Part shown: in pieces, positions 35,771-64,000 of the stretch
Position numbering within the stretch: the first letter of the stretch is position 1
How the letters are laid out: every line of letters starts with the position of its first letter
Source: the human T2T-CHM13v2.0 reference genome, Homo sapiens
NCBI RefSeq assembly: GCF_009914755.1
Contig: NC_060933.1
Length of the DNA: 64,000 nt
Strand: one strand, 5' to 3'
The notes under the pieces: model-generated
Told to the model about the DNA's origin: nothing
Databases searched by the model: none
Seen by the model: only the letters and a program-made list of their open reading frames with translations
Program-made: the position numbers and the translations under genes

Positions 35771-38912
<3,142 letters not shown>

Positions 38913-39213
38913 GCTTTTTAAAAAAATTTTTTTATTTAACATTTTCTAAAAATATATACAAAAAGAAGCATATCAAACATATTAGGAAGGTTGCACATGG
39001 GAAGATGGGGAATAGAAATGGGGGGTGGGAATGAAAGAAAATAAATGAGAGAGGGACTTTGTATTGATCAATGATAATAACTCAATCCTCTATGTCTTTG
39101 AAAAGAAGGAGAAGGAAGAGGAAGAAAAAGAAAGTGGGATAAAGGATCAGAAAGGGAGGAAAATAGAAAAACTTAGAGTATGACTCCAGGGTAGACCTGT
39201 TTTGTTGTTGCTG

Positions 39214-39233
39214 GGTTGGTTGGTTGGTTGGTT
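39214..39233. repeat. (GGTT)n microsatellite
   Basis: ggttggttggttggttggtt seen directly. Confidence 0.9.
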
Positions 39234-39250
39234 TGTTGTAATTTTCATAT

Positions 39251-39358
39251 GTTTTGCCATGTTGGCCAGGCTGGTCTCAAACCCCTAGCCTCAAGTGATC
39301 AACCCGCCTTGGCCTCCCAGAGTGCTGGGATTACAGGCGTGAGCCACCACGTCCAGCC
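39251..39358 (-). mobile_element. Alu left-arm fragment (AluS-like)
   Basis: gccatgttggccaggctggtctcaaac...gcctcccagagtgctgggattacaggcgtgagccacc is the reverse complement of the Alu 5' arm. Confidence 0.95.
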
Positions 39359-39387
39359 CCCACACTGCGTCTGGCCTCCGTGGTAGA

Positions 39388-39545
39388 CCTCCCAGACAGG
39401 GTGGCCAGGCAGAGGCACTCCTCACTTCCCAGATGGGGCAGCCAGGCAGAGGCGCTCCTCACTTCCCAGACGGGGTGGCCAGGCAGAGGAGCTCCTCACT
39501 TCCCAGATGGGGCGGCCGGGCAGAGGCACTCCTCACGTCCCAGAT
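39388..39545 (-). repeat. SVA/LAVA-type VNTR, ~4 x 37 bp
   Basis: Unit ggggcagccaggcagaggcgctcctcacttcccagac is the antisense of the SVA VNTR gtctgggaagtgaggagcgcctctgcc. Confidence 0.92.
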
Positions 39546-39874
39546 CCACAAAAGAAGTGAAAATAGCCTTAACTGATGACATTCCACCATTGTGATTTGT
39601 TTCTGCCCCACCCTAACTGATGTACTTTGTAATCTCCCCCACCCTTAAGAAAGTTCTTTGTAATCTCCCTCACCCTTGAGAAGGTTCTTTGTAATTCTCC
39701 CCACCCTTGAGAATGTACTTTGTGAGATCCAACCCCTGCCGGCAAAACATTGCTCCTAACTCCACTGCCTATCCCAAAACCTATAAGAACTAATGATAAT
39801 CCGATCACCCTTTGCTCTCTTTTCAGACTCAGCCCACCTGCACCCAGGTGAAATAAACAGCCTTGTTGCTCACA
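39543..39874 (+). mobile_element. HERV-H LTR (LTR7B-like) U3-R fragment lacking its 5' end and U5
   Basis: gatccacaaaagaagtgaaaatagccttaactgatgacattccacc, three 31-bp internal repeats (ctttgtaatctcccccacccttaagaa), TATA-like cctataag at ~39781, and cacccaggtgaaataaacagccttgttgctcaca followed by poly(A). Confidence 0.9.
39852..39857 (+). terminator. Polyadenylation signal of the LTR, used by the source transcript
   Basis: AATAAA lies 16 nt upstream of the A-tail. Confidence 0.9.
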
Positions 39875-39887
39875 AAAAAAAAAAAAA

Positions 39888-42450
39888 GACAAAAGCATTC
39901 TGACAAAATTCTTCATGAGGCATGCGTTCATCTCACAGAATTGAACTTTTCTTTTGATTGAGCAGCTTTGAAACACACTTTTTTTAGAATCTGCAAGTGT
40001 ACATTTCGAGTGCTTTGAGGCCTATAGTAGAAAACGACTTATCTTCACATAAAAACTGGACAGAAGCATTCTGAAAAACTACTTTGTGATGTCTGCATTC
40101 ATCTCAAAGAGTTGAACCTTACTTTTGATTGGTCAGTTTTGAAACACCATTTTTGTAGAATCTGCAAGTGTGCATTTGGAGAACTTTGAGGCCTATGGTG
40201 GAAAAGGAAATATCTTCACAACAAAACTAGACAGAAGCATTATGAGAAACTTCTTTGTGATGTTTGCATTCATCTCACACAGAGTTGAACTGTTCTTTTA
40301 ATTGAGCAGCTTTGAAACCCTCTTTTTTTAGAATCTGCAAGAGGCCATGTGGAGAGCTTTGAGGCCTACCGTGGAAAAGGAAATATGTTCACATAAAAAC
40401 TAGACAGAAGCATTCTTACAAACTTCTTTGAGATGTGGGCATTCAGCTCACAGTGTTGAACCTTTCTTTTCATTGAGCAGCTTTGAAACACTCTTTTTGT
40501 TGAATCTGCAAGTGGACATTTCGAGCACTTTCTGGCCTATTGTGGAAAAGGACATATCATCATATAAAAACTAGACAGAAGCATTCTGACAAACTTCTTC
40601 ATGAAGTGTGTATTCATCTCACAGTTGAATCTTTCTTTTCATTTAGCAGTTTTTAAACACTCTGTTTGTAGAATCTACAAGTGGACATTTGGAGCACTTT
40701 GAGGCCTATGGTGGAAAAGGAAATATTTTCACAAAAAAAATAGACAGAAGCATTCTGATAAACTTCATTGTGATCTGTGCATTCATGTCACAGAGATGAA
40801 CGTTTCTTTTGATTGAGCAGCTTTGAAACACTCTTTCTGTAGAATCTGCAACTGGACCTGTGGAACGCTTTGGGGCCTATCATGGAAAAGGAAATATGTT
40901 CACATAAAACCTAGACAGAAGCATTCTGACAGACTTCTTTGTGATTTGTGCATTCATCTCATAGAGTTGAACCTTACTTTTCATTGAGCAGCTTTGAAAC
41001 ACTCTTTTTGTAGAATGTGCAAGTGGACATTAGGAGCGCTTTGATGCCTATGTTGGAAAAGAAAATATCTTCACATAAAAACTAGACAGAAGCATTCTGA
41101 AAAACTTCTCTTGGATGTGTGCATTCATCTCACAGAGGTGAACCTTTCTTTTCATTGAGCAGTTTTGAAACACTCATTTTGTAGAATCTGCAAATGGATA
41201 TTTGGAGCGCTTTGAGGTCTATGGTGGAAAAGGAAATATCTTCACATGAAAACTAGACAGAAGCATTCTGACAAAAAACTTTGTAATGTGTGTACTCATC
41301 TCACAGAGTATAAACCTACTTTTCATTGAGCAGTTTTGAAACACTCTTTTTCTAGAATCTGCAAGTGGACATTTGGAGCCCTTTGAGGCCTATGGTGGAA
41401 AAGGAAATATCTTCACATAAAAACTAGACAGAAGCATTCTGACAAACTTCTTTGTGATGTGTGCATTCATCTCACAGAGTTGAACCTTACTTTTCATTGA
41501 GCAGCTTTGAAACACTCTTTCTGTAGAATCTGGAAGCGGACATTTGCAGCACTTTGATGTCCATGGTGGAAAAGAAATTATCTTCACATGAAAACAAGAC
41601 AGAAGCTTTTTGAAAAACTTCTATGTGACATGTGCCTTCATCTCAGAGAGTTGAACCTTTCCTTTGTTTGAGCAGCTTTGAAACAATCTTTTTGTAGAAT
41701 CTGCAAGTGGACTATTCGAGCATCTTGTGGTCTATGGTGGAAAATGAAACATCTTCACATAAAAACTACACAGAAAAATTCTGAGAATCTTCTTTTTGAT
41801 GTGTGCATTCACCTCACAGAATTGAACGTTACTTTTCATTGAGCAGTCTTGCATCTCTCTTTTTGTAGAATCTGCAAGTGGACATTTGGAGCGCCTTGAG
41901 GTCTCTGGTGGAAAAGGAAAGATCTTCACATGAAAACTAGACAGAAGCATTCTCACAAACTTCCTTGTGATGTGTGCATTCATCTCCCAGACGTGAACCT
42001 TTCTTTTGATCGAGCAGCTTTGAAACACGCTTTTTGTAGAATCTGCAAGTGGACATTTGGAGCACTTTGAGGCCTATGGTGGAAAAGGGAATATTTTCAC
42101 ATAAAAATTAGACAGATGCATTCTGACAAGCTTCTTTGTGATGTGTGCATTCATCTCACAGAATTGTAACTTTCTTTTCATTGAGCAGCTTTGAAACACT
42201 CTTTTTGTAGAATCTGCAAGTGGACATTGGAGCACTTTGAGGCCTATTATGGAAAATCAAATATCTTCACATAAAAACTAGACAGAAGCATTATGACAAA
42301 CTTATTTGTGATGCGTGTGTTCATCTCACAGAGTTGAACCTTTCTTTTGATTGAGCAGTTTGGAAACACTCTTTTTGTAGAATCTGCAAGTGGACATTTC
42401 AAGCACTTTGAGGCCAATGTGGAAAAGGTAATATCTTCATATAAAAACTA
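39888..42450 (+). repeat. Monomeric alpha satellite, 'cattctgacaaa' layer
   Basis: Same signature as 35771-36848 (attctgacaaact, gagcagctttg, aaccttacttttcattg). No CENP-B boxes. Confidence 0.88.
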
Positions 42451-55560: not shown

Positions 55561-58500
55561 TTGGGGTCTGAATGATTGTCCCTCACATAGGATTCGTGAA
55601 CACTGCTGCTGGGGTCTGAATGTTTGTCCCTCACATAGGATCCCAGAACACTGCTGCTGGGGTCTATATGTATGTCCGTCACGTGGGATTCCAAAACACT
55701 GCTGCTGGGTTCTGACTGTTTCTCCCTCTCATAGAATTCCATAGCACTGCGACGAGGTTCTGAATGTTTGTCTGTAACATAGGATTCCAGAACGCCCCCC
55801 GCCCGTTGTTTAAATGTTTGTCCCTCACATTGGATTCCAGAACACTGCTGTTGGATTCTGAATGTTTGTCCCTCACAGAGGATTCCAGAACACTGCTACT
55901 ATTGTCTGAATGTTTGTCCCTCACATAGGATTCCAGAACCCTCCTAAGAGTGTGTGAATGTTTGTCCCTCACATAGATTTCCAGATCACTGCTACGATTG
56001 TCTGAATGTTTGTCCTACACTTAGTATTCCAGAACACTGCTACGACAGTCTGAATGATTGTCCCTCACACAGAATTCCAGAACACTGCTACGACGGTCTG
56101 AATGATTGCCCCTCACATAGGATTCGAGAACACTGCTGCCGGGGTCTGAATGTTTTTCCCTCACATAGGATCCTAGAACACTGTTGCTGGGGTCTACATG
56201 TGTGTCTGTCACATAGGATTCCAAAACACTGCTGCGGGGTTCTGACTGTTTTTCCCTGACATAGAATTCAAGAACACTGCGACGAGGTTCTGAATGTTTG
56301 TCTGTAACATAGGATTCCAGAAACCCCCTCCCCGTAGCTTAAATATTTGTCCCTCACATTGGATTCCAGAACACTGCTACCATTGTCTGAATGTTTGTCC
56401 TTCACATAGGATTCCAAAACATTGCTATGGGGGTCTGAATGTTTGTTCTTCACATAGGATTCCAGAACACTCCTGCTGTGTTCTGAATGTTAGTTCCTCC
56501 TATAGGATTCCCTAACACTGTCACGAGGTTCTGAATGTTTGTTCCGCACATAGGATTCCAAAACACTCCTGCTGTGTTCCGAGTGTTTGTCCCTCACATA
56601 GGATTCCAGAACAATCCTGCCGTGGTCTGAATGTGAGTCCCTCACATAGGTTTCCAGAATACTGCTGCTGGGTTCTGTGTGTTTCTCCCTCACATAGAAT
56701 TCCATAACACTGTGAAGAGATTATTAATGGTTGTCCGTTACATAGGATTCCAGAACAATCTCGGTGTTGTTTGAATGTTTTTCCCTTACATAGGTTTCCA
56801 GAACACTGCTACGTTTGTCTGAATGTTTGTCCCTCACATAGGATTCCAGAACACTGCTGGGAGGGTCCGAATGTTTTTCTCTCACATGGGATTCCAGAAC
56901 ACTGCTATGATTGTCTGAATGTTTGTCCCTCACTTAGGATTCCAGAACACAGCCACGAGGGTCTGAATGATTGTCCCTCACATGGGATTCCAGAACAATC
57001 CTGCTGTGTTCTGAATATTTGCCCCTCACATATAGTTACAGAACACTGCTGCTGGGTTCTGAGTGTTTGTCCATCACATGGGATTCCAGAACACAGCTAT
57101 GAGGGTCTGATTGTTTTTCTCTTACAAAGGATTACAGAACACTGCTGCTGGGGTCTAAAAGTTTCTCCATCACACACTATTCCAGAGCATTGCTACGAGG
57201 GTCTGAATGTTTGTCCCTCATTTAGAATTCCACAACACTTCTGCTGGGGTGTGAATGTTTGTCCCTCACACAAAATTCCAGAACACTGCTATGACGATCT
57301 GAATGATTGTCCCTCATTTAGGATTCCAAAACACTCCTGTTGTTTTCTGAGTGTTTGTCCCTCACCTAGGATTCCAGAAACTATCCTCCTGTTGTCAGAA
57401 TGTTTGTCTCTCACATAGGGTTTCAGAACACTGCTGCTGGGTTCTGAGTGTTTCTCCCTCACATAGGATTCCAGAACACTCCTACAAGGGTCTGAATGTT
57501 TGACCCTCACATAGGATCCCAGAACACTGCTGCTAGGGTCTAGATTTTTGTCCATCACACCGGATTCCAGAACCCTCCTAAGAAGGTCTGAATGTCTGTT
57601 CCTCACAGGGGATTCCAGAACACTCCTGCTGTGGTCTCAATGTTTTTCCCTCACACAGGCCTACAGAACACTGCTACGGGAGTCAGAATGTTTGTCTGTC
57701 ATGCAGAATTCCAGAACACTGGCACGAGTGTCTGAATGATTGGCCATCACATAGGATTCCAGAACACTGTCGCTGGGGTCGTAATGTTTGTCCCTCACAT
57801 AGGATTCCAGAACACTGCTGCTAGGGTCTACAGGTATGTCCATCACATAGGATTCCAGAACACTGCTTTTGGTTTCTGAGTGTTTCTCCCTCACATAGAA
57901 TTCCAGAACACTGCGATGAGGGTCAGAATATTTGTCCATAACATAGGATTCCTGAACAATCCCGCTGTTGTTTGAATGTTTGTCCCTCACATAGGATTAT
58001 GGAACACTGCTACAATTGTCTGAATGTTTGTCCCTCACATAGCATTCCAGAACACTGCTACGACTGTCTGAACGTTTATTCCTCACAGGGGATTCCAGAA
58101 CACTCCTGCTATGGCCTGAATGATTGTCCCTCACATAGGATTCCAGAACACTGCTATGGGGGTCTGAATGTTTGTGCTTGACACAGAATTCCAGAACACT
58201 GCTACGAGGGTCTGAATGACTGTCCCTCACATAGGATTCCAAAACACTGCTGCTGGGGTCTACATGTATGTCCGTCACATAGGATTCCAGAACACTGCTA
58301 TTGGGTTCTGACTGTTTCTCCCTCACATAGAATTCCAGAACATTGTGACGAGCGTCTGAATGTTTGTCTGCAACATAGGATTCCAGAACACTGTCGCTCT
58401 TGTTTTTGTTTGTCCCTCACATAGGATTCCAGAACACTGCTACCATGGCCTGAATGTTTGTTCCTCACACAGGATTCCAGAACACTGCTACAAGGGTCTG

Positions 58501-61500
58501 AATGTTTGTCCCTCACACAAAATTCCAGAACATTGCTATGAGGGTCTGAATGTTTGTCCCTCATACAGAATTCCAGAACACTGCTATGATGGTCTGAATG
58601 ATGGTCCCTCACATGGGACTCCAGAACACTGCTGCTGGGTTCTGAATGTTTGTCCCTCACATAGGATTCCAGAACACGGCTGCAGGGGTCTACATGTATG
58701 TCCGTCACATGGGATTCCAGAACAATGCTGCAGGATTCTGAGTGTTCCTCCCTCACATAGAATTCCAGAAGACTGTGACGAGGGTGTGAATGTTTGTCCG
58801 TAACTTAGGATTCCAGAAGACTCCCGCTGTTGTTTGAATGTTTGTTTCTCACATAGGATTCCATAACACTGCTGCTTGAGTCTGAAGGTTTTTCCCTAAC
58901 ATAGGATTCCAGAACACTGCTATGATTGTCTGAATGTTTGTCACTCCGTAGGATTCCGGAACACTGCAACGAGGGTCTGAAAGTTTGTCCCTCACTCTGG
59001 ATTTCAGAACACTCTGCTGTGGTCTGAATATTTGTTCCTCACTTCGGATCCAGAACAGTGATACGAGGGTCTGAATGTTCGTCCCTCATGTAGGATTCCC
59101 CAACACTGCTACAATTGTCTGAATGTTTGTCCCTCACATAGGATTCCAGAACACTCCTGCTGTGGTCTGAATGTCTGTCCCTCACATAGGGTTGCAGAAC
59201 ACTGCTGCTAGATTCTCAGTGTTTGTCCCTCACATAGGATTCCAGAACACTGCTACAAGGGTCTGAATATTTGTCACACACATAGAATTGCAAAACACTG
59301 CTGCTGGGGTCCGAAAATTTGTCCCTTACATAGGATTCCAGAACATTGCTGCTGGGGTCTACATGTATGGCTATCACATAGGATTCCAGATCACTGCTGC
59401 TGGGTTCTGAATGTTTCTCCCTCACATAGAATTCCAGAACACTGTGACGAGGGACTGAATGTTTCTCAGTAACATAGCATTCCAGAACACTCTCGCAGTT
59501 GTTTGAATATTTGTCCCTCACATAGGATTCCAGAACACTGCTACTGGGGTCTGAGTTTTTGTCCCTCACATAGTATTCCAGAACACTGCTACGATTGTCT
59601 GAATGTTTGTCCCTCACATAGGATTCCAGAACGATCCTATGAGGGTCTGGATGTTTGTCCCTCACATAGGATTCCAGAACACTGCTATGATTGTCTGAAT
59701 GTCTGTCACTCACATAGGATTCCAGATCAGTGCTACGAGGGTCTGAATGTTTTTCCCTAATATAGGATTCCTGAATACTGCAACAAGGGTCTGAATGTTT
59801 GTCTGTAACATAGGATCATGGAACACTACCCCTGTTGTTTGAATGTTTGTCCCTCACATTGGATCCCAGAACACTGCAACTAGGGTCTGAATGTTTGTCC
59901 CTCACATAGGATTCCAAAACACTCCTGCCATGCTCTGAGTGTTTATTCCTCACATAAGATTCCAGTACAATCCTGCTGTGGTCTGAAAGTTTTTCCCTCA
60001 CATAGGGTTCCAGAACAATGCTTCTCGGTTCTGAGTGTTTTTCCCTCACATATGATTTCATAACTCTACTGGGAGGGTCTGAATATTTGTCCCTCACATA
60101 GCATTCCAGAACACTGCTGTTGGGCTCTAAATGTCTGTCCATCACATAGGATTCCAGAACAGTGCCACGAGCTTCTGAATGTTTGTTCCTTACAGGGGAT
60201 TCCAGAACACTCCTGTTGTGAATATTTGTCCCTCACACAGGATTCCAGAACACTGCTATGAGGGTCTGAATTTTTGTCCCTCACACAGAGTTCCAGAACA
60301 CTGCTGTGAGGGTCTGAATGATTTTCCCTCACATAGTTTTCCAGAACACTGCTACTGGGGTCTGAATGTTTGTTCCTCACATAGGATTAAAGAACACTGT
60401 CCCTGGGTTCTGAGTGTTTCTCCCTCACATAGAATTCCGGAAGACTGCAACGAGGGTAACAACGTTTGTCGCTCTCATATGGTTCCATAACACTGCTGGT
60501 AGGTTCTCAGTGTTTGCCCCAAACATAGGATTCCAGAACATTGCTGCTTGTGTCTAAATGTTTGTCCTTCACATAAGATTCCAGAACACTGCTATGAGGG
60601 TCTGAATGATTGTCCCTCATGTAGGATTCCAGAACACTGTTGCTGGGGTCTACAGGTGTGTCCGTCACATGGCATTCCAGAACACTGATATGAGGTCCTG
60701 AATATTTGCTCCTCACAGGGGATTCCAGAAACCTCCTGCTGTGTTCTGAATGTTTTTCCCTCACACAGAATTCCAGACCACTGCTACAAGGGTCTGAATG
60801 TTTGTCCCTCACACAGAATTCCAGAACACTGCTATGACGGTCTGAATGATTGTCCCTCACATGGGACTCCAGAACACTGCTGCTGGGTTCTGAATGTTTG
60901 TCCCTCACATGGGATTCCAGAACACAGCTACAAGGGTCTTCATGTATGTCCGTCACATAGGATTCTAGAACAATGCTGCAGGATTCTAAGTGTTCCTCCC
61001 TCGCACAGAATTCCAGAAGACTGCGACGAGGGTCTGAATGTCTGTCGGTAACATAGGATTCCAGAAGACTCCCGCTGTTGTTTGAATGTTTGTCCCTCAC
61101 ATAGGATTCCAGAACACTGATGCTTGAGTCTGAAAGACTTTCCCTCACACAGGATTCCAGAACATTGCTACGACTGTCTGAATGTTTGTCATTCCGTAGG
61201 ATTCCAGAACACTGCCACGAGGGTCTGAAAGTTTGTCCCTCACTGTGGATTCCAGAACACTCTGCTGTGGTCTGAATGTTTGCCCCTCACTTGGGATCCG
61301 AAACAGTGATACGAGGGTTGGAATGTTCGTCCCTCACATAGGATTCCCCAACACTGCTACGATTGTCTAAATGTTTGTCCCTCACATAGGATTCCAGAAC
61401 ACTCCTGCTGTGGTCTGAATGTCTGTCCCTCACATAGGGTTATAGAACACTGCTTCTAGATTCTCTGTGTTTGTCCCTCACATAGGATTCCAGAACACTG

Positions 61501-64000
61501 CTACAAGGGTCTGAATATTTGTCACATGCATAGGATTCCAAAACACTGCTGCTAGGGTCTGAATGTTTGTCCCTCACAGAGGACTACAGAACACTGAAGC
61601 TGGGGTCTGAATGTTTCTCCCTCACATAGGACTACTGAACACTGCTGCTGGGGTCTACATGTATGGCCGTCACATAGGATTCCAGATCACTGTTGCTGGG
61701 GTCTACATGTATGGCCGTCACATAGGATTCCAGATCACTGCTGCTGGATTCTGAATGTTTCTCCCTCACATAGAATTCCAGAAAACAGCGACGAGGGTCT
61801 GAATGTTTCTCCGTAACGTAGCATTCCAGAACACTCTGGCTGTTGTTTGAATGTTTGTCCCTCACATAGTATTCCAGAACACTGCTACGATTGTCTGAAT
61901 GTTTGTCCCTCACATAGGATTCCAGAATGATCCTATGAGGGTCTGGATGTTTGTCCCTCACATACGATTCCAGAACACTGCTATGATTGTCTGAATGTCT
62001 GTCACTCACATAGGATTCCAGATCAGTGCTACGAGGGTCTGAATGTTTTTCCCTAACATAGGATTCCTGAATACTGCAACGAGGGTCTGAATGTTTGTCT
62101 GTAACATAGGATCATGGAACACTACCCCTGTTGTTTGAATGTTTGTCCCTCACATTGGATTCCAGAACACTGCAACTAGGGTCTGAATGTTTGTCCCTCA
62201 CATAGTATTCCAAAACACTCCTGCCGTGCTCTGAGTGTTTATCCCTCACATCGGATCCCAGAACAATCCTGCTGTGGTCTGAAAGTTTTTCCCTCACATA
62301 GGGTTCCAGAACACTGCTGCTGGGTTCTGAGTGTTTTTCCATCACATATGATTTCATAACACTACTGGGAGGGTCTGAATGTTTATCCCTCACATTGCAT
62401 TCCAGAACACTGCTGTTGGGGTCTAAGTGTTTGTCCATCATGTAGGATTCCAGAACACTGCAACGAGGTTCTGAATGTTTGTTCCTTACAGGGGATGCCA
62501 GAACACTCCTGTTGTGTTGTGAATGTTTATCCCTCACACAGGATTCCAGAACACTACTGTGAGGGTCTGAATTTTTGTCCCTCACCCAGAATTTCAGAAC
62601 ACTGCTATGAGGGTCTGAATGATTTTCCCTCACATAGCATTCCAGAACACTGCTGCTGAGGTCTGAATGTTTGTCCCTCACATACGATTACAGAACACTG
62701 CCGCTGGGTTCTGAGTGTTTCTCCCTCACATAGAATTCCAGAACACTGCAACGAGGGTCTCAACGTTGGTCCCTCTCATATGGTTCCAGAACACTGCTGG
62801 TAGGTTCTCAGTGTTTGTCCCAAACCTAGGATTCCAGAACACAGCTGCTGGGTTCTAAATGTTTGTCTGTCACATAGGATTCTAGAACGCTGTTATGTGG
62901 TTCTAAATCTTTGTTCATCACAGGGGATTCCAGAAGAATCCTGCTGTGATCTGAATGTTTGTCCCTCACACAGGATTCCAGAACACTCCTACTATGGTCT
63001 GAATGTTTGGCCCTAACATAGGATTCCAGAACATGGCTATGACAGTCTGAATCTTTGTCCCTCACATAGGATTCCGGAACAATCCTGCTGTGGTCTGAAT
63101 GTATGTCCTTCACATTGCATTCGAGAACACTGCTGCTGCATTATGGGTGTTTGTCCCTCACATTGGATTCCAGAACACTGCTACTAGCGTCTGAATATTT
63201 GTCCCTCACATAGGATTCCAGAACACTGCTGCTGTGGTCTAAATGTTTGTCCATCACATGGGATTCCAGAAAACTGCTATGAGGGTATGCATGTTTTTTC
63301 CTCACAAGGGATTCGAGAACAATCTTGCTGTGTTCTGAATCTTTGTCCCTCACAAAGGATTCCAGAACACTGCTACGAAGGTCTGAATATTTGCCCTCAC
63401 ACAGAATTCTAGATCACTGCTACATGGGTTTGAATGATTTTCCCTCACATAGGATTCCAGAACACTGCTTCTGGCATCTGAATGTTTGTCCCTCAATAGT
63501 GTTACTGAACACTGCTGCTGGGGTCTACATGTATGTCCGTCACATAGGGTTCTAGAGCATGGCTGCTGTGTTCTGAGTGTTTCTCCCTCACATAGAATTT
63601 CAGAACACTGGGATGAAGGCCGGAATGTTTGTCCGAACATAGGATTCATGAACACCCTTGCTGTTGTTTGAATGTTGTCCCTTTCATAGGATTCCAGAAA
63701 ACTGCTGCTGGGGTCTGAATGTTTGTCCCTCACATATCATTCCACAATACTGTTGCGATAGTCTTAATGTTCCTCCCTCACATAGGATTCCAGAGCACTG
63801 CTATGAAGTTCTGAATGTTTTTCTCTCACATACGATTCTGGAACACTGCTACAATTATCTGAATATTTTTCCCTCACATAGGATTCCAGAACACTGCTAT
63901 GATTCTCTGAATGTTTCTCCGTCACATAGGATTCCAGAACACTGTTACGAGAGTCTGAATGTTTGTCCGTCACAAAGGATTCCAGAACACTGCTATGATA
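55561..64000 (+). repeat. CER (D22Z3-type) 48-bp satellite array, ~175 units, runs off the window
   Basis: Unit ggggtctgaatgtttgtccctcacataggattccagaacactgctgct repeated head to tail; matches the recalled CER consensus. Confidence 0.92.

What the first reader, a model, noticed from the sequence alone, without database searches (positions are those of the whole stretch)
38915..39545. LAVA-like VNTR-U1-Alu-U2 module in an apparently human centromere
Seen: on the minus strand an SVA-type VNTR is followed not by SINE-R but by a short unique piece, an Alu arm, (AACC)n, a pyrimidine-rich tract and AATAAA/A-tract. Known: this is the layout of the LAVA 3' end, which derives from an HSD17B3 intron, and LAVA amplified only in gibbons. 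Inference: this is a relic of a LAVA prototype from the hominoid ancestor, carried here passively in antisense. Rare great-ape LAVA-like precursors may already be described.
Basis: partly seen in the sequence, partly recalled or inferred. Interest (0 to 1): 0.8.

Follow-up and report, generated by a model that had tools for sequence, protein, structure and literature searches.

The report
Human fossil of gibbon LAVA retrotransposon
A piece of the "gibbon-only" LAVA jumping gene lies backwards inside an old processed gene copy in human chromosome 9 centromeric satellite, which suggests LAVA's tail was put together before gibbons and great apes split.

Summary
On the minus strand, a 37-bp SVA-type VNTR (39387-39543) runs into U1, an Alu arm, (AACC)n/U2, a pyrimidine-rich L1ME5 piece and an A-rich tail (38914-39386).

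The non-VNTR part is collinear with one VNTR-less locus at chr9:108.44 Mb. I infer this is the published LAVA 3' source in HSD17B3 intron 2.

T2T-CHM13 holds exactly six VNTR-joined copies. All six share three features with printed gibbon LAVA sequences:
- the VNTR/U1 junction;
- the LAVA-diagnostic 7-nt deletion with CTACT->ATATG;
- two diagnostic substitutions.

They lack a third diagnostic substitution, the last 15 nt of LAVA, and any Alu-like/CT 5' part. I therefore read them as stem-LAVA ("proto-LAVA") relics.

The module did not insert here itself. It is an antisense passenger in a ~3 kb spliced retrocopy (36849-39887). That retrocopy carries LSP1-like and striatin exons plus a non-coding exon, and was polyadenylated at an LTR7 signal. 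It was inserted L1-style into alpha satellite with a target-site duplication (TSD). Differently spliced sister retrocopies sit on chr3, chr5 and chr13. Two chr9 copies are segmental duplicates.

Carbone 2012 noted six human U1-AluS-U2-L1ME5 copies. No paper I could read mentions the attached VNTR. No non-human genome was searched, and gibbon sequences were compared by eye.

The parts
36841..36848 (+). 5' target-site duplication of the retrocopy, in an alpha-satellite monomer (GACAAAAG; a longer AAAAAGTAGACAAAAG can be read in the two chr9 paralogues)
36849..39887 (+). Whole L1-type processed retrocopy of a chimeric spliced RNA. It interrupts 171-bp alpha satellite on both sides.
   Evidence: TRF. 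Sharp homology ends, poly(A) and TSDs at four independent loci.
36849..37115 (+). LSP1-like exon sequence (gene name by recall), starting with a 29-bp GC-rich repeat (3.9 copies, 36849-36959)
   Evidence: 91-93% matches to chr11:1.96-1.97 Mb and about 25 pericentromeric duplicon copies. Weak Pfam Caldesmon match in the chr5 copy.
37116..37196 (+). 81-bp striatin (STRN) exon, 100% identical to chr2:36912677-36912757
   Evidence: The chr5 copy, which has one more STRN exon, gives Pfam Striatin PF08232 E=2.5e-16.
37197..38913 (+). GC-rich terminal-exon-like segment with no Pfam domain. Its chr2:88.77 Mb paralogue is preceded by a pyrimidine tract plus CAG and shows the empty site GCAGGGC^CTGGTTGAC.
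38914..38937 (-). Degenerate A-rich tail of the LAVA-type module (contains AATAAA in LAVA sense); not present in the source locus
38938..39134 (-). L1ME5-derived part of the LAVA 3' end. It stops 15 nt short of the gibbon LAVA end. The U2/L1ME5 boundary is approximate, placed using the 103-bp U2 length in Meyer 2016.
39135..39237 (-). U2 with (AACC)n; carries the LAVA-diagnostic T->C (CAACAAAAC). Boundaries approximate.
39238..39358 (-). AluSz arm with the LAVA-diagnostic 7-nt deletion / ATATG and the CACGCC state
   Evidence: Rfam
39359..39386 (-). U1 (28 nt)
39387..39543 (-). SVA/LAVA-type VNTR, about 4 units of 37 bp. The first 4 nt (AGGT) overlap the source locus. At the far end it is cut and joined to LTR7 with AGAT microhomology.
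39544..39873 (+). 3' part of an LTR7-type (HERV-H) LTR, from about consensus position 85 to the cleavage site, with AATAAA at 39852-39857
   Evidence: By-eye match to LTR7 consensuses printed in bioRxiv 10.1101/2021.07.08.451617
39874..39887 (+). Poly(A) tail of the retrocopy (14 A)
39888..39895 (+). 3' target-site duplication (GACAAAAG), followed by the continuation of the alpha-satellite monomer

Best explanation
The module is a dead relic of a stem-LAVA ('proto-LAVA') element: an SVA-type VNTR joined to U1-AluSz-U2-L1ME5 from HSD17B3 intron 2.

Most likely history:
1. (Inferred) A VNTR-bearing composite RNA acquired the intron piece. The junction reads as GGGAG|GTCTACC, and the source locus has AG just before GTCTACC, which fits splicing.
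2. (Shown by shared character states) A retrotransposed master copy picked up the 7-nt deletion/ATATG and two substitutions.
3. (Inferred) Before the gibbon/great-ape split, a descendant inserted antisense into the last exon of a chimeric pericentromeric gene carrying LSP1-like and STRN exons.
4. (Shown for the junction; its cause inferred) That gene's RNA read through the antisense module. It left it after a few VNTR units, joined an LTR7 at about position 85, and was polyadenylated at the LTR7 signal.
5. (Shown) L1 copied differently spliced versions of this mRNA into at least four places: chr9 alpha satellite (this window), chr3, chr5 and chr13.
6. (Shown) The chr9 copy was duplicated twice together with its satellite flanks.

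The module has no evident present function here. It is a passenger.
For: **Source.** 38938-39390 is collinear with chr9:108435613-108436071 (91%, E=1e-186). That is the only one of 7 loci without a VNTR.

**Junction.** TCTGGGAGG|TCTACCAC is present in 6 of 6 VNTR-bearing human copies. It is printed identically for gibbon LAVA_C (Meyer 2016 Fig S2) and LAVA_E/F (Lupan 2015 supplement).

**Derived states.** Lupan 2015 Fig S4 prints 24 LAVA subfamily consensuses plus the macaque and gibbon source loci. I read these against my alignment.
- 7-nt deletion with CTACT->ATATG: 24 of 24 LAVA rows and 6 of 6 human copies. The macaque, gibbon and human source loci keep the canonical Alu tail.
- CAATAAAAC->CAACAAAAC: 24 of 24 LAVA rows and 6 of 6 human copies; T in all 3 source loci.
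- CACACC->CACGCC: 24 of 24 LAVA rows and 6 of 6 human copies; A in all 3 source loci.
- The human copies keep AAAGACATAGAGG as LAVA_A1/A2 do. They lack the 4-nt deletion seen in the B-F subfamilies.

**Carrier.**
- Poly(A) directly after the LTR7 cleavage site, with TSDs at 4 of 4 independent loci. These are chr9 (at least 8 bp), chr13 (15 bp), chr3 (about 14 bp) and chr5 (9 bp).
- The cleavage point varies by 1-3 nt between loci.
- Exon content differs between copies: the STRN exon 2-like piece is in chr5 and chr13 only, one LSP1-like exon is in chr5 only, and a 21-nt alternative acceptor is used in chr3 and chr5 only.
- Pfam Striatin E=2.5e-16.
- The splice acceptor and the empty site are visible in the chr2:88.77 Mb paralogue.
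- The chr9:42.41 and 77.28 Mb copies share the alpha-satellite flanks.

**Rough ages.** Non-CpG K2P is 2.4-4.1% between independent retrocopies (2311 sites). It is 3.8-4.1% between the three best-kept modules and the source locus. The tree has the source locus as outgroup.
Against: - One change present in 24 of 24 LAVA consensuses (TGTAATCC->TGTAGTCC) is absent from 6 of 6 human copies.
- The human module ends at AGAAAATGTT plus tail. That is 15 nt before the LAVA end ...TTATTGTTTTGTGTGC seen in all consensuses.
- No CT-hexamer or Alu-like 5' part is present, so a full LAVA cannot be shown.
- No TSD flanks the module itself. The neighbouring host sequence is not a typical L1 nick site.
- CACGCC could be a retained CpG rather than a shared derived state.
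- The gibbon and macaque comparisons were made by eye from printed alignments, not computed.
- No ape or monkey genome was searched, so pre-split age is not demonstrated. Divergence dating is compatible with retrocopies made after the split (about 12-20 My at an assumed 1e-9 per site per year).
- That the chr9:108.44 Mb locus equals hg19 chr9:99026506-99026986 is inferred without a liftover.
Confidence: 0.85

Rival explanations
1. Independent, convergent capture. A hominid SVA-type RNA spliced into the same cryptic acceptor in HSD17B3 intron 2, unrelated to the event that founded gibbon LAVA.
For: The junction lies at an AG|GT-compatible site, so it could recur. An SVA_D VNTR printed in Lupan Fig S5 ends ...GTCTGGGAGGTG. 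The human 3' end is 15 nt shorter than LAVA, and one LAVA-wide substitution is missing.
Against: The 7-nt deletion with three adjacent substitutions and the non-CpG T->C are shared with 24 of 24 LAVA consensuses. They are absent from the macaque, gibbon and human source loci. Two independent captures would need the same rare source allele.
Confidence: 0.07
2. The whole ~3 kb LSP1-like/STRN/antisense-LAVA/LTR7 unit is itself a small undescribed composite retrotransposon family that copied itself serially, rather than a set of pseudogenes of one host gene.
For: There are four independent L1-type insertions of one odd chimera. No intron-containing source was found in T2T-CHM13: 7 of 7 loci are accounted for.
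Against: The copies differ by whole exons and by an alternative acceptor, which needs a multi-exon template and not copy-from-copy descent. Copy number is very low. The tree is near star-like.
Confidence: 0.08
3. Chance neighbourhood: a segmental duplicate of the HSD17B3 intron landed next to an unrelated GC-rich minisatellite.
For: The region is pericentromeric and rich in duplications.
Against: Homology to the source starts exactly at U1 and ends near the LAVA 3' end with an A-rich tail. The repeat unit and junction equal those printed for LAVA. Dispersed copies have TSDs and poly(A).
Confidence: 0.01

Closest known systems
LAVA (L1-Alu-VNTR-Alu), gibbon composite non-LTR retrotransposon
   Same: Same order: VNTR-U1-AluSz-U2-L1ME5-poly(A). 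Same VNTR/U1 junction. Same source in HSD17B3 intron 2. Shares the LAVA-wide deletion/ATATG and two substitutions. Keeps the LAVA_A state where later subfamilies have a 4-nt deletion.
   Different: Lies in human, not gibbon. Lacks one LAVA-wide substitution and the last 15 nt. No CT repeat or Alu-like 5' region. Only 3-7 VNTR units. No TSD of its own. Six copies, all spread by a carrier RNA or by duplication rather than by the element itself.
SVA (SINE-R-VNTR-Alu) of great apes
   Same: Same type of 35-40-bp GC-rich VNTR, with the last unit ending ...GTCTGGGAGG.
   Different: No SINE-R follows the VNTR; the HSD17B3-intron piece does. No Alu-like or CT 5' end is present.
LAVA 3' progenitor locus (HSD17B3 intron 2; Carbone 2012, Meyer 2016)
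   Same: Collinear over about 453 bp, from U1 to the L1ME5 piece.
   Different: The progenitor has no VNTR, keeps the canonical Alu tail, has no A-rich tail, and continues into the intron on both sides.
L1-mediated processed pseudogenes of chimeric or fusion transcripts
   Same: Intron-less exon joins, poly(A) at a real polyadenylation site, TSDs starting in A-rich target sites, and 5' truncation of some copies.
   Different: The template gene was not found in the human assembly. Its 3' end is built from an antisense composite retrotransposon and an LTR7.
SVA carried inside the lcr16a duplicon (Damert 2022, PMC9132208; passages seen)
   Same: A VNTR composite element is propagated passively as part of a larger duplicating unit, inserted antisense to the host gene.
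   Different: There the spread is by segmental duplication of SVA. Here it is mainly by retrocopying of a host mRNA that contains a LAVA-type fragment.

Membership tests
LAVA | 3' part U1-AluSz-U2-L1ME5 derived from HSD17B3 intron 2, collinear | tested here: met
   91% over 38938-39390 against the VNTR-less chr9:108.44 Mb locus. Naming that locus HSD17B3 intron 2 rests on Meyer 2016 and Lupan 2015, without a liftover.
LAVA | SVA-type VNTR joined directly to U1 at ...GTCTGGGAGG|TCTACCAC | tested here: met
   6 of 6 human copies. Identical in printed gibbon LAVA_C, E and F (read by eye).
LAVA | Changes shared by all 24 subfamily consensuses against the source loci: 7-nt deletion/ATATG, T->C in U2, A->G (CACGCC) | tested here: met
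   6 of 6 human copies carry all three; the human source locus carries none (read by eye).
LAVA | A->G giving TGTAGTCC in all 24 subfamily consensuses | tested here: not met
   6 of 6 human copies have TGTAATCC. This places them below the common ancestor of the gibbon consensuses.
LAVA | 3' end at ...TTATTGTTTTGTGTGC followed by poly(A) | tested here: not met
   The human copies stop at AGAAAATGTT plus an A-rich tail, 15 nt earlier.
LAVA | 5' (CCCTCT)n and Alu-like region | tested here: not met
   In all 6 copies the VNTR is cut after 3-7 units and joined to LTR7. Whether the original insertion had a 5' part cannot be told.
LAVA | Own target-site duplication | tested here: inconclusive
   The empty-site paralogue shows GCAGGGC^CTGGTTGAC. 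The far side of the insertion is missing from the RNA-derived copies.
SVA | SINE-R (HERV-K-derived) 3' end after the VNTR | tested here: not met
   The VNTR is followed by U1-Alu-U2-L1ME5.
L1-mediated processed retrocopy (the carrier, 36849-39887) | Poly(A) at a genuine polyadenylation site, TSDs, spliced exon joins, independent loci | tested here: met
   TSDs at 4 of 4 independent loci, exon-content differences between copies, and AATAAA 16 nt before the tail.
LTR7 (HERV-H LTR) as 3' end of the carrier | Sequence match to the LTR7 consensus including AATAAA and the R/U5 cleavage site | tested here: met
   By-eye match of the first ~45 nt and last ~60 nt to the LTR7 consensuses printed. The middle differs, so the subfamily is undetermined. 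No repeat library was available.

The most novel reading that the evidence does not exclude
LAVA's 3' half (VNTR spliced to the HSD17B3-intron piece) was already assembled, had mutated in a master copy, and was retrotransposing in the common ancestor of gibbons and great apes. It is therefore not a gibbon invention. The six human copies are its only known non-gibbon remains. They survived because one insertion was caught in the 3' exon of a now-lost germline-expressed LSP1-like/STRN fusion gene whose mRNA L1 copied repeatedly. That lost gene, if still present in another ape, could hold a full-length proto-LAVA.
Probability: 0.7. Interest if true: 0.6.

Novelty: new member of a known kind. Interest (0 to 1): 0.55.

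Why it matters
The papers I could read describe LAVA as having "emerged exclusively in gibbons" (Carbone 2014). They model its assembly as an event in the gibbon ancestor at a source locus that is unique in other primates (Meyer 2016).

Human copies that carry the LAVA junction and most, but not all, LAVA-wide mutations give an outgroup inside the LAVA lineage. This has three uses.
- It orders the earliest mutations: deletion/ATATG, T->C and CACGCC came first, TGTAGTCC later.
- It argues that assembly preceded the gibbon/great-ape split.
- It makes the question testable by presence/absence of four dated insertions in complete ape genomes.

It also documents a rare way for a transposon fossil to spread: antisense inside a host mRNA that ends in an LTR7. 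The stakes are modest. This is an inert relic, of interest mainly to people who study primate mobile elements and pericentromeres.

Tried and rejected
**Sources I could not use.**
- Ianc et al. 2014 (Mol Biol Evol, mst256), the paper most likely to have discussed human copies, is not held. Hara et al. 2012 was not looked up; it has no PMC id in the reference list seen. Either may already describe the VNTR-joined human copies.
- The LAVA consensus in Carbone 2012's supplement is stored cut at about 400 characters, and motif searches in it found nothing.

**Paper searches for a prior description.**
- Searches gave no paper that mentions a VNTR attached to the human copies. One search returned only unrelated uses of the word 'lava'.
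- A search for LSP1P/STRN chimeras gave nothing relevant.
- Passages seen only restate that LAVA is gibbon-specific.

**Analyses that led nowhere.**
- Pfam on five open frames of 36807-38826 gave no family, so I call the terminal segment non-coding.

**Readings rejected.**
- SINE-R/SVA identity: no SINE-R is present.
- Pure segmental duplication of all copies: chr3, chr5 and chr13 have their own TSDs and tails.
- The minus-strand T-tract at 39874-39887 as part of the LAVA-like unit: it is the poly(A) of the plus-strand carrier.
- Simple insertion of the module into an LTR7: the other flank is host exon, not LTR7.

**Left open.** The VNTR/LTR7 junction could come from splicing, from a deletion at insertion, or from microhomology (AGAT) joining. 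I could not tell these apart.

I did not compute an alignment with gibbon or macaque sequences, because those were available only as printed text. I did not confirm HSD17B3 exons around chr9:108.44 Mb.

Full report
**1. What is at 38915-39545**

Read on the minus strand, the stretch begins with 4.2 copies of a 37-bp GC-rich unit (TRF, 39390-39545, 87% matches). After the repeat come, in order:
- a 28-nt unique piece (39386-39359);
- an Alu arm (Rfam Metazoa_SRP, 39249-39357, minus strand, E=3.3e-8);
- (AACC)n;
- a pyrimidine-rich tract;
- the A-rich run AAATAAAAAAATTTTTTTAAAAAG (38937-38914).

**2. Where the non-VNTR part comes from**

The window's own assembly (T2T-CHM13) could be searched.
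- With 38915-39400 as query, seven places matched over nearly the full length (query coverage 453-486 of 486 bases). The other matches were ordinary Alus. Only 40 of 1671 first-look candidates were scored.
- With the Alu-free part (38915-39245), exactly 7 loci matched, all 7 candidates scored. They are the window, chr9:42.409 Mb, chr9:77.277 Mb, chr3:75.439 Mb, chr5:29.034 Mb, chr13:24.228 Mb and chr9:108.436 Mb.
- The chr9:108.436 Mb locus shares only 38938-39390 with the window (91%) and has no VNTR.

Carbone 2012 and Meyer 2016 place the LAVA 3' progenitor (U1-AluSz-U2-L1ME5, about 480 bp, no TSD) on human chr9. They give hg19 chr9:99,026,502-99,026,986 (the two papers' ranges combined), in intron 2 of HSD17B3 and in the gene's orientation, with AT just before U1. 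The T2T locus reads ...AAAATAT|AGGTCTACC and keeps a canonical Alu tail. The macaque and gibbon source loci printed by Lupan 2015 keep the same tail. I take the T2T locus to be that progenitor. This is an inference, because I could not run a liftover.

**3. Is it LAVA-lineage or a look-alike?**

Three printed sources let me compare by eye.
- Meyer 2016 Fig S2 prints a gibbon LAVA_C element.
- Lupan 2015's supplement prints LAVA_E/F junctions.
- Lupan 2015 Fig S4 aligns 24 LAVA subfamily consensuses with the macaque and N. leucogenys source loci.

Results:
- *Junction.* Gibbon ...CCCCGTCTGGGAGG|TCTACCAC... equals the junction in 6 of 6 human copies. A pattern search finds it at 6 loci in the genome and 0 times in the reversed control.
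- *Deletion.* All 24 LAVA consensuses lack 7 nt of the Alu tail and read ATATG where the source loci read CTACT. All 6 human copies have exactly this state. The human, gibbon and macaque source loci do not.
- *Two substitutions.* CAATAAAAC->CAACAAAAC in U2, and CACACC->CACGCC in the Alu. Both are in 24 of 24 LAVA rows and 6 of 6 human copies, against all three source loci. The second is at a CpG and is weaker evidence.
- *One LAVA-wide change is missing.* TGTAATCC->TGTAGTCC is absent from all 6 human copies.
- *LAVA_A-like state.* The human copies keep AAAGACATAGAGG as LAVA_A1/A2 do, not the 4-nt deletion of subfamilies B-F.
- *Shorter 3' end.* All LAVA consensuses run to ...TTATTGTTTTGTGTGC. 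The human copies stop at AGAAAATGTT and then have the A-rich tail.

Several other differences between the human copies and the human source locus are changes private to that locus, because macaque and gibbon agree with the copies. Examples are TAATTTCTTC and CTTTTTTTTTC.

The simplest reading is that the human module branched from the LAVA stem after the capture and after three or four mutations. It branched before the last common ancestor of the gibbon subfamilies.

**4. What carries it**

The module is not an insertion into the satellite in its own right. Alpha satellite (171-bp period) stops at 36848 and resumes at 39888.

The ~3 kb between is one plus-strand unit. It ends in an LTR7-type LTR fragment with AATAAA (39852-39857) and a 14-A tail directly after ...GTTGCTCAC. 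It is flanked by GACAAAAG on both sides. The LTR7 name rests on a by-eye match to consensuses printed in a HERV-H paper, since no repeat library was at hand.

The chr3, chr5 and chr13 copies end at the same place with their own tails and TSDs of about 14, 9 and 15 bp. The cleavage point varies by 1-3 nt between loci. The two other chr9 copies share the satellite flanks and are therefore segmental duplicates.

From 5' to 3', the unit holds:
- LSP1-like exon sequence. It matches chr11:1.96-1.97 Mb at 93% and about 25 pericentromeric duplicon copies. There is a weak Pfam Caldesmon match. The gene name is by recall.
- A striatin exon. The window's 81 bp are 100% identical to chr2:36912677-36912757.
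- A 1.7-kb GC-rich segment without Pfam domains.
- The antisense LAVA-type module.
- The LTR7 end.

The copies differ by whole exons.
- chr5 and chr13 carry an extra striatin exon.
- chr5 carries an extra LSP1-like exon and about 375 bp more at the 5' end.
- chr3 and chr5 use an acceptor 21 nt upstream.
- The chr5 copy has a 178-aa open frame that matches Pfam Striatin (E=2.5e-16).

A paralogue of the 1.7-kb segment at chr2:88.77 Mb is preceded by a pyrimidine tract and CAG. It runs uninterrupted through the point where the module sits (GCAGGGC^CTGGTTGAC).

So the copies are L1-made retrocopies of alternatively spliced mRNAs of one chimeric gene that had the LAVA-type element antisense in its last exon. 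That gene is not among the 7 loci in this assembly.

All six copies share the same VNTR/LTR7 junction (...CCCAG|ATCCACAAAAG, with AGAT common to both partners). They hold 3 to 7 VNTR units. I cannot tell whether that junction came from splicing, from a deletion at insertion, or from end joining.

**5. A side inference**

[quoted passage not shown] In the printed consensus, that signal lies in the last 15 nt (...GTTTATTG...). The human module lacks exactly these nucleotides, and its plus-strand reading has no AATAAA. This would explain why the host RNA read through to the LTR7 signal. This is inference only.

**6. Ages (rough)**

| Comparison | Non-CpG K2P | Sites or differences |
|---|---|---|
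| Between independent retrocopies | 2.4-4.1% | 2311 sites |
| Window vs its chr9 duplicates | 2.6% | 2311 sites |
| The two chr9 duplicates vs each other | 0.6% | 2311 sites |
| Three best-kept modules vs source locus | 3.8-4.1% | 16-17 of 424-428 |
| chr3 module vs source locus | up to 6.6% | partly alignment noise |

A maximum-likelihood tree rooted on the source locus is nearly star-like for the four insertions.

At an assumed 1e-9 substitutions per site per year (my assumption), the retrocopies would be about 12-20 My old and the capture about 19-21 My or more. The published gibbon/great-ape split is about 16.8 My, and the oldest LAVA subfamilies are dated 17-18 My. The numbers are compatible with the reading but too imprecise to prove it. 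The argument for a pre-split origin is the pattern of shared and unshared derived states.

**7. What is known already**

[quoted passage not shown] They also stated that no sequence matches the entire element (passages). Meyer 2016 treats the spacers as unique in other primates and models assembly in the gibbon ancestor (passages). Carbone 2014 says LAVA 'emerged exclusively in gibbons' (passage).

None of the passages or listings I saw mentions a VNTR on the human copies, their LAVA-diagnostic mutations, or their carrier. Ianc 2014 could not be read and Hara 2012 was not looked up; either may hold such a note.

**8. Verdict**

- It is a passenger in a retrocopy family of a lost chimeric gene, placed in chr9 alpha satellite by L1 and then duplicated.
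- It is a new (non-gibbon, basal) member of a known kind, and its interest is moderate.

Noticed in passing
window 55562-63994: A 48-bp-period satellite array (176 copies, 74% matches) begins right where the alpha satellite ends and runs to the end of the window. I did not identify the family.
   Followed up: no
L023 3558-7310 (chr5:29.0316-29.0353 Mb): The chr5 sister retrocopy is the most 5'-complete. It holds a 178-aa open frame that matches Pfam Striatin (E=2.5e-16). This hints that the lost source gene encoded a fusion protein.
   Followed up: partly
L021 4068-4190 and 7268-7580 (chr3:75.437-75.441 Mb): The chr3 sister retrocopy, which itself ends in an LTR7 fragment, inserted into another LTR7-type LTR (TSD about GAAAAGTGAAAATG).
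   Followed up: partly
window 36849-36959: A 29-bp GC-rich repeat at the 5' end of the retrocopy has 3.9 copies here and about one fewer in the chr9 duplicates. It has little repeat structure in the chr3, chr5 and chr13 copies, so it expanded after insertion or differed between source RNAs.
   Followed up: partly
window 39390-39382 and 39198-39190 (minus strand): The 9-mer AGGTCTACC occurs both at the start of U1 and inside U2, on either side of the Alu arm. It is not placed like a clean Alu TSD. Unexplained.
   Followed up: no
G000 chr1, 2, 9, 14, 15, 16, 22 and Y pericentromeres: About 25 copies (91-94% identical) of the LSP1-like exon duplicon are scattered in pericentromeric regions, including chr9:44.79, 77.58 and 79.97 Mb. 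One of these duplicon copies was probably the 5' part of the lost source gene.
   Followed up: no
six copies, VNTR segment (window 39387-39543): VNTR length differs between copies: about 3 units on chr13, 4 in the window, 5 in the chr9 duplicates, and 6-7 on chr3 and chr5. The two flanking junctions are identical. The last unit reads GGGATGTGGGGAG on chr5 and chr13, close to the last unit printed for gibbon LAVA_C.
   Followed up: partly
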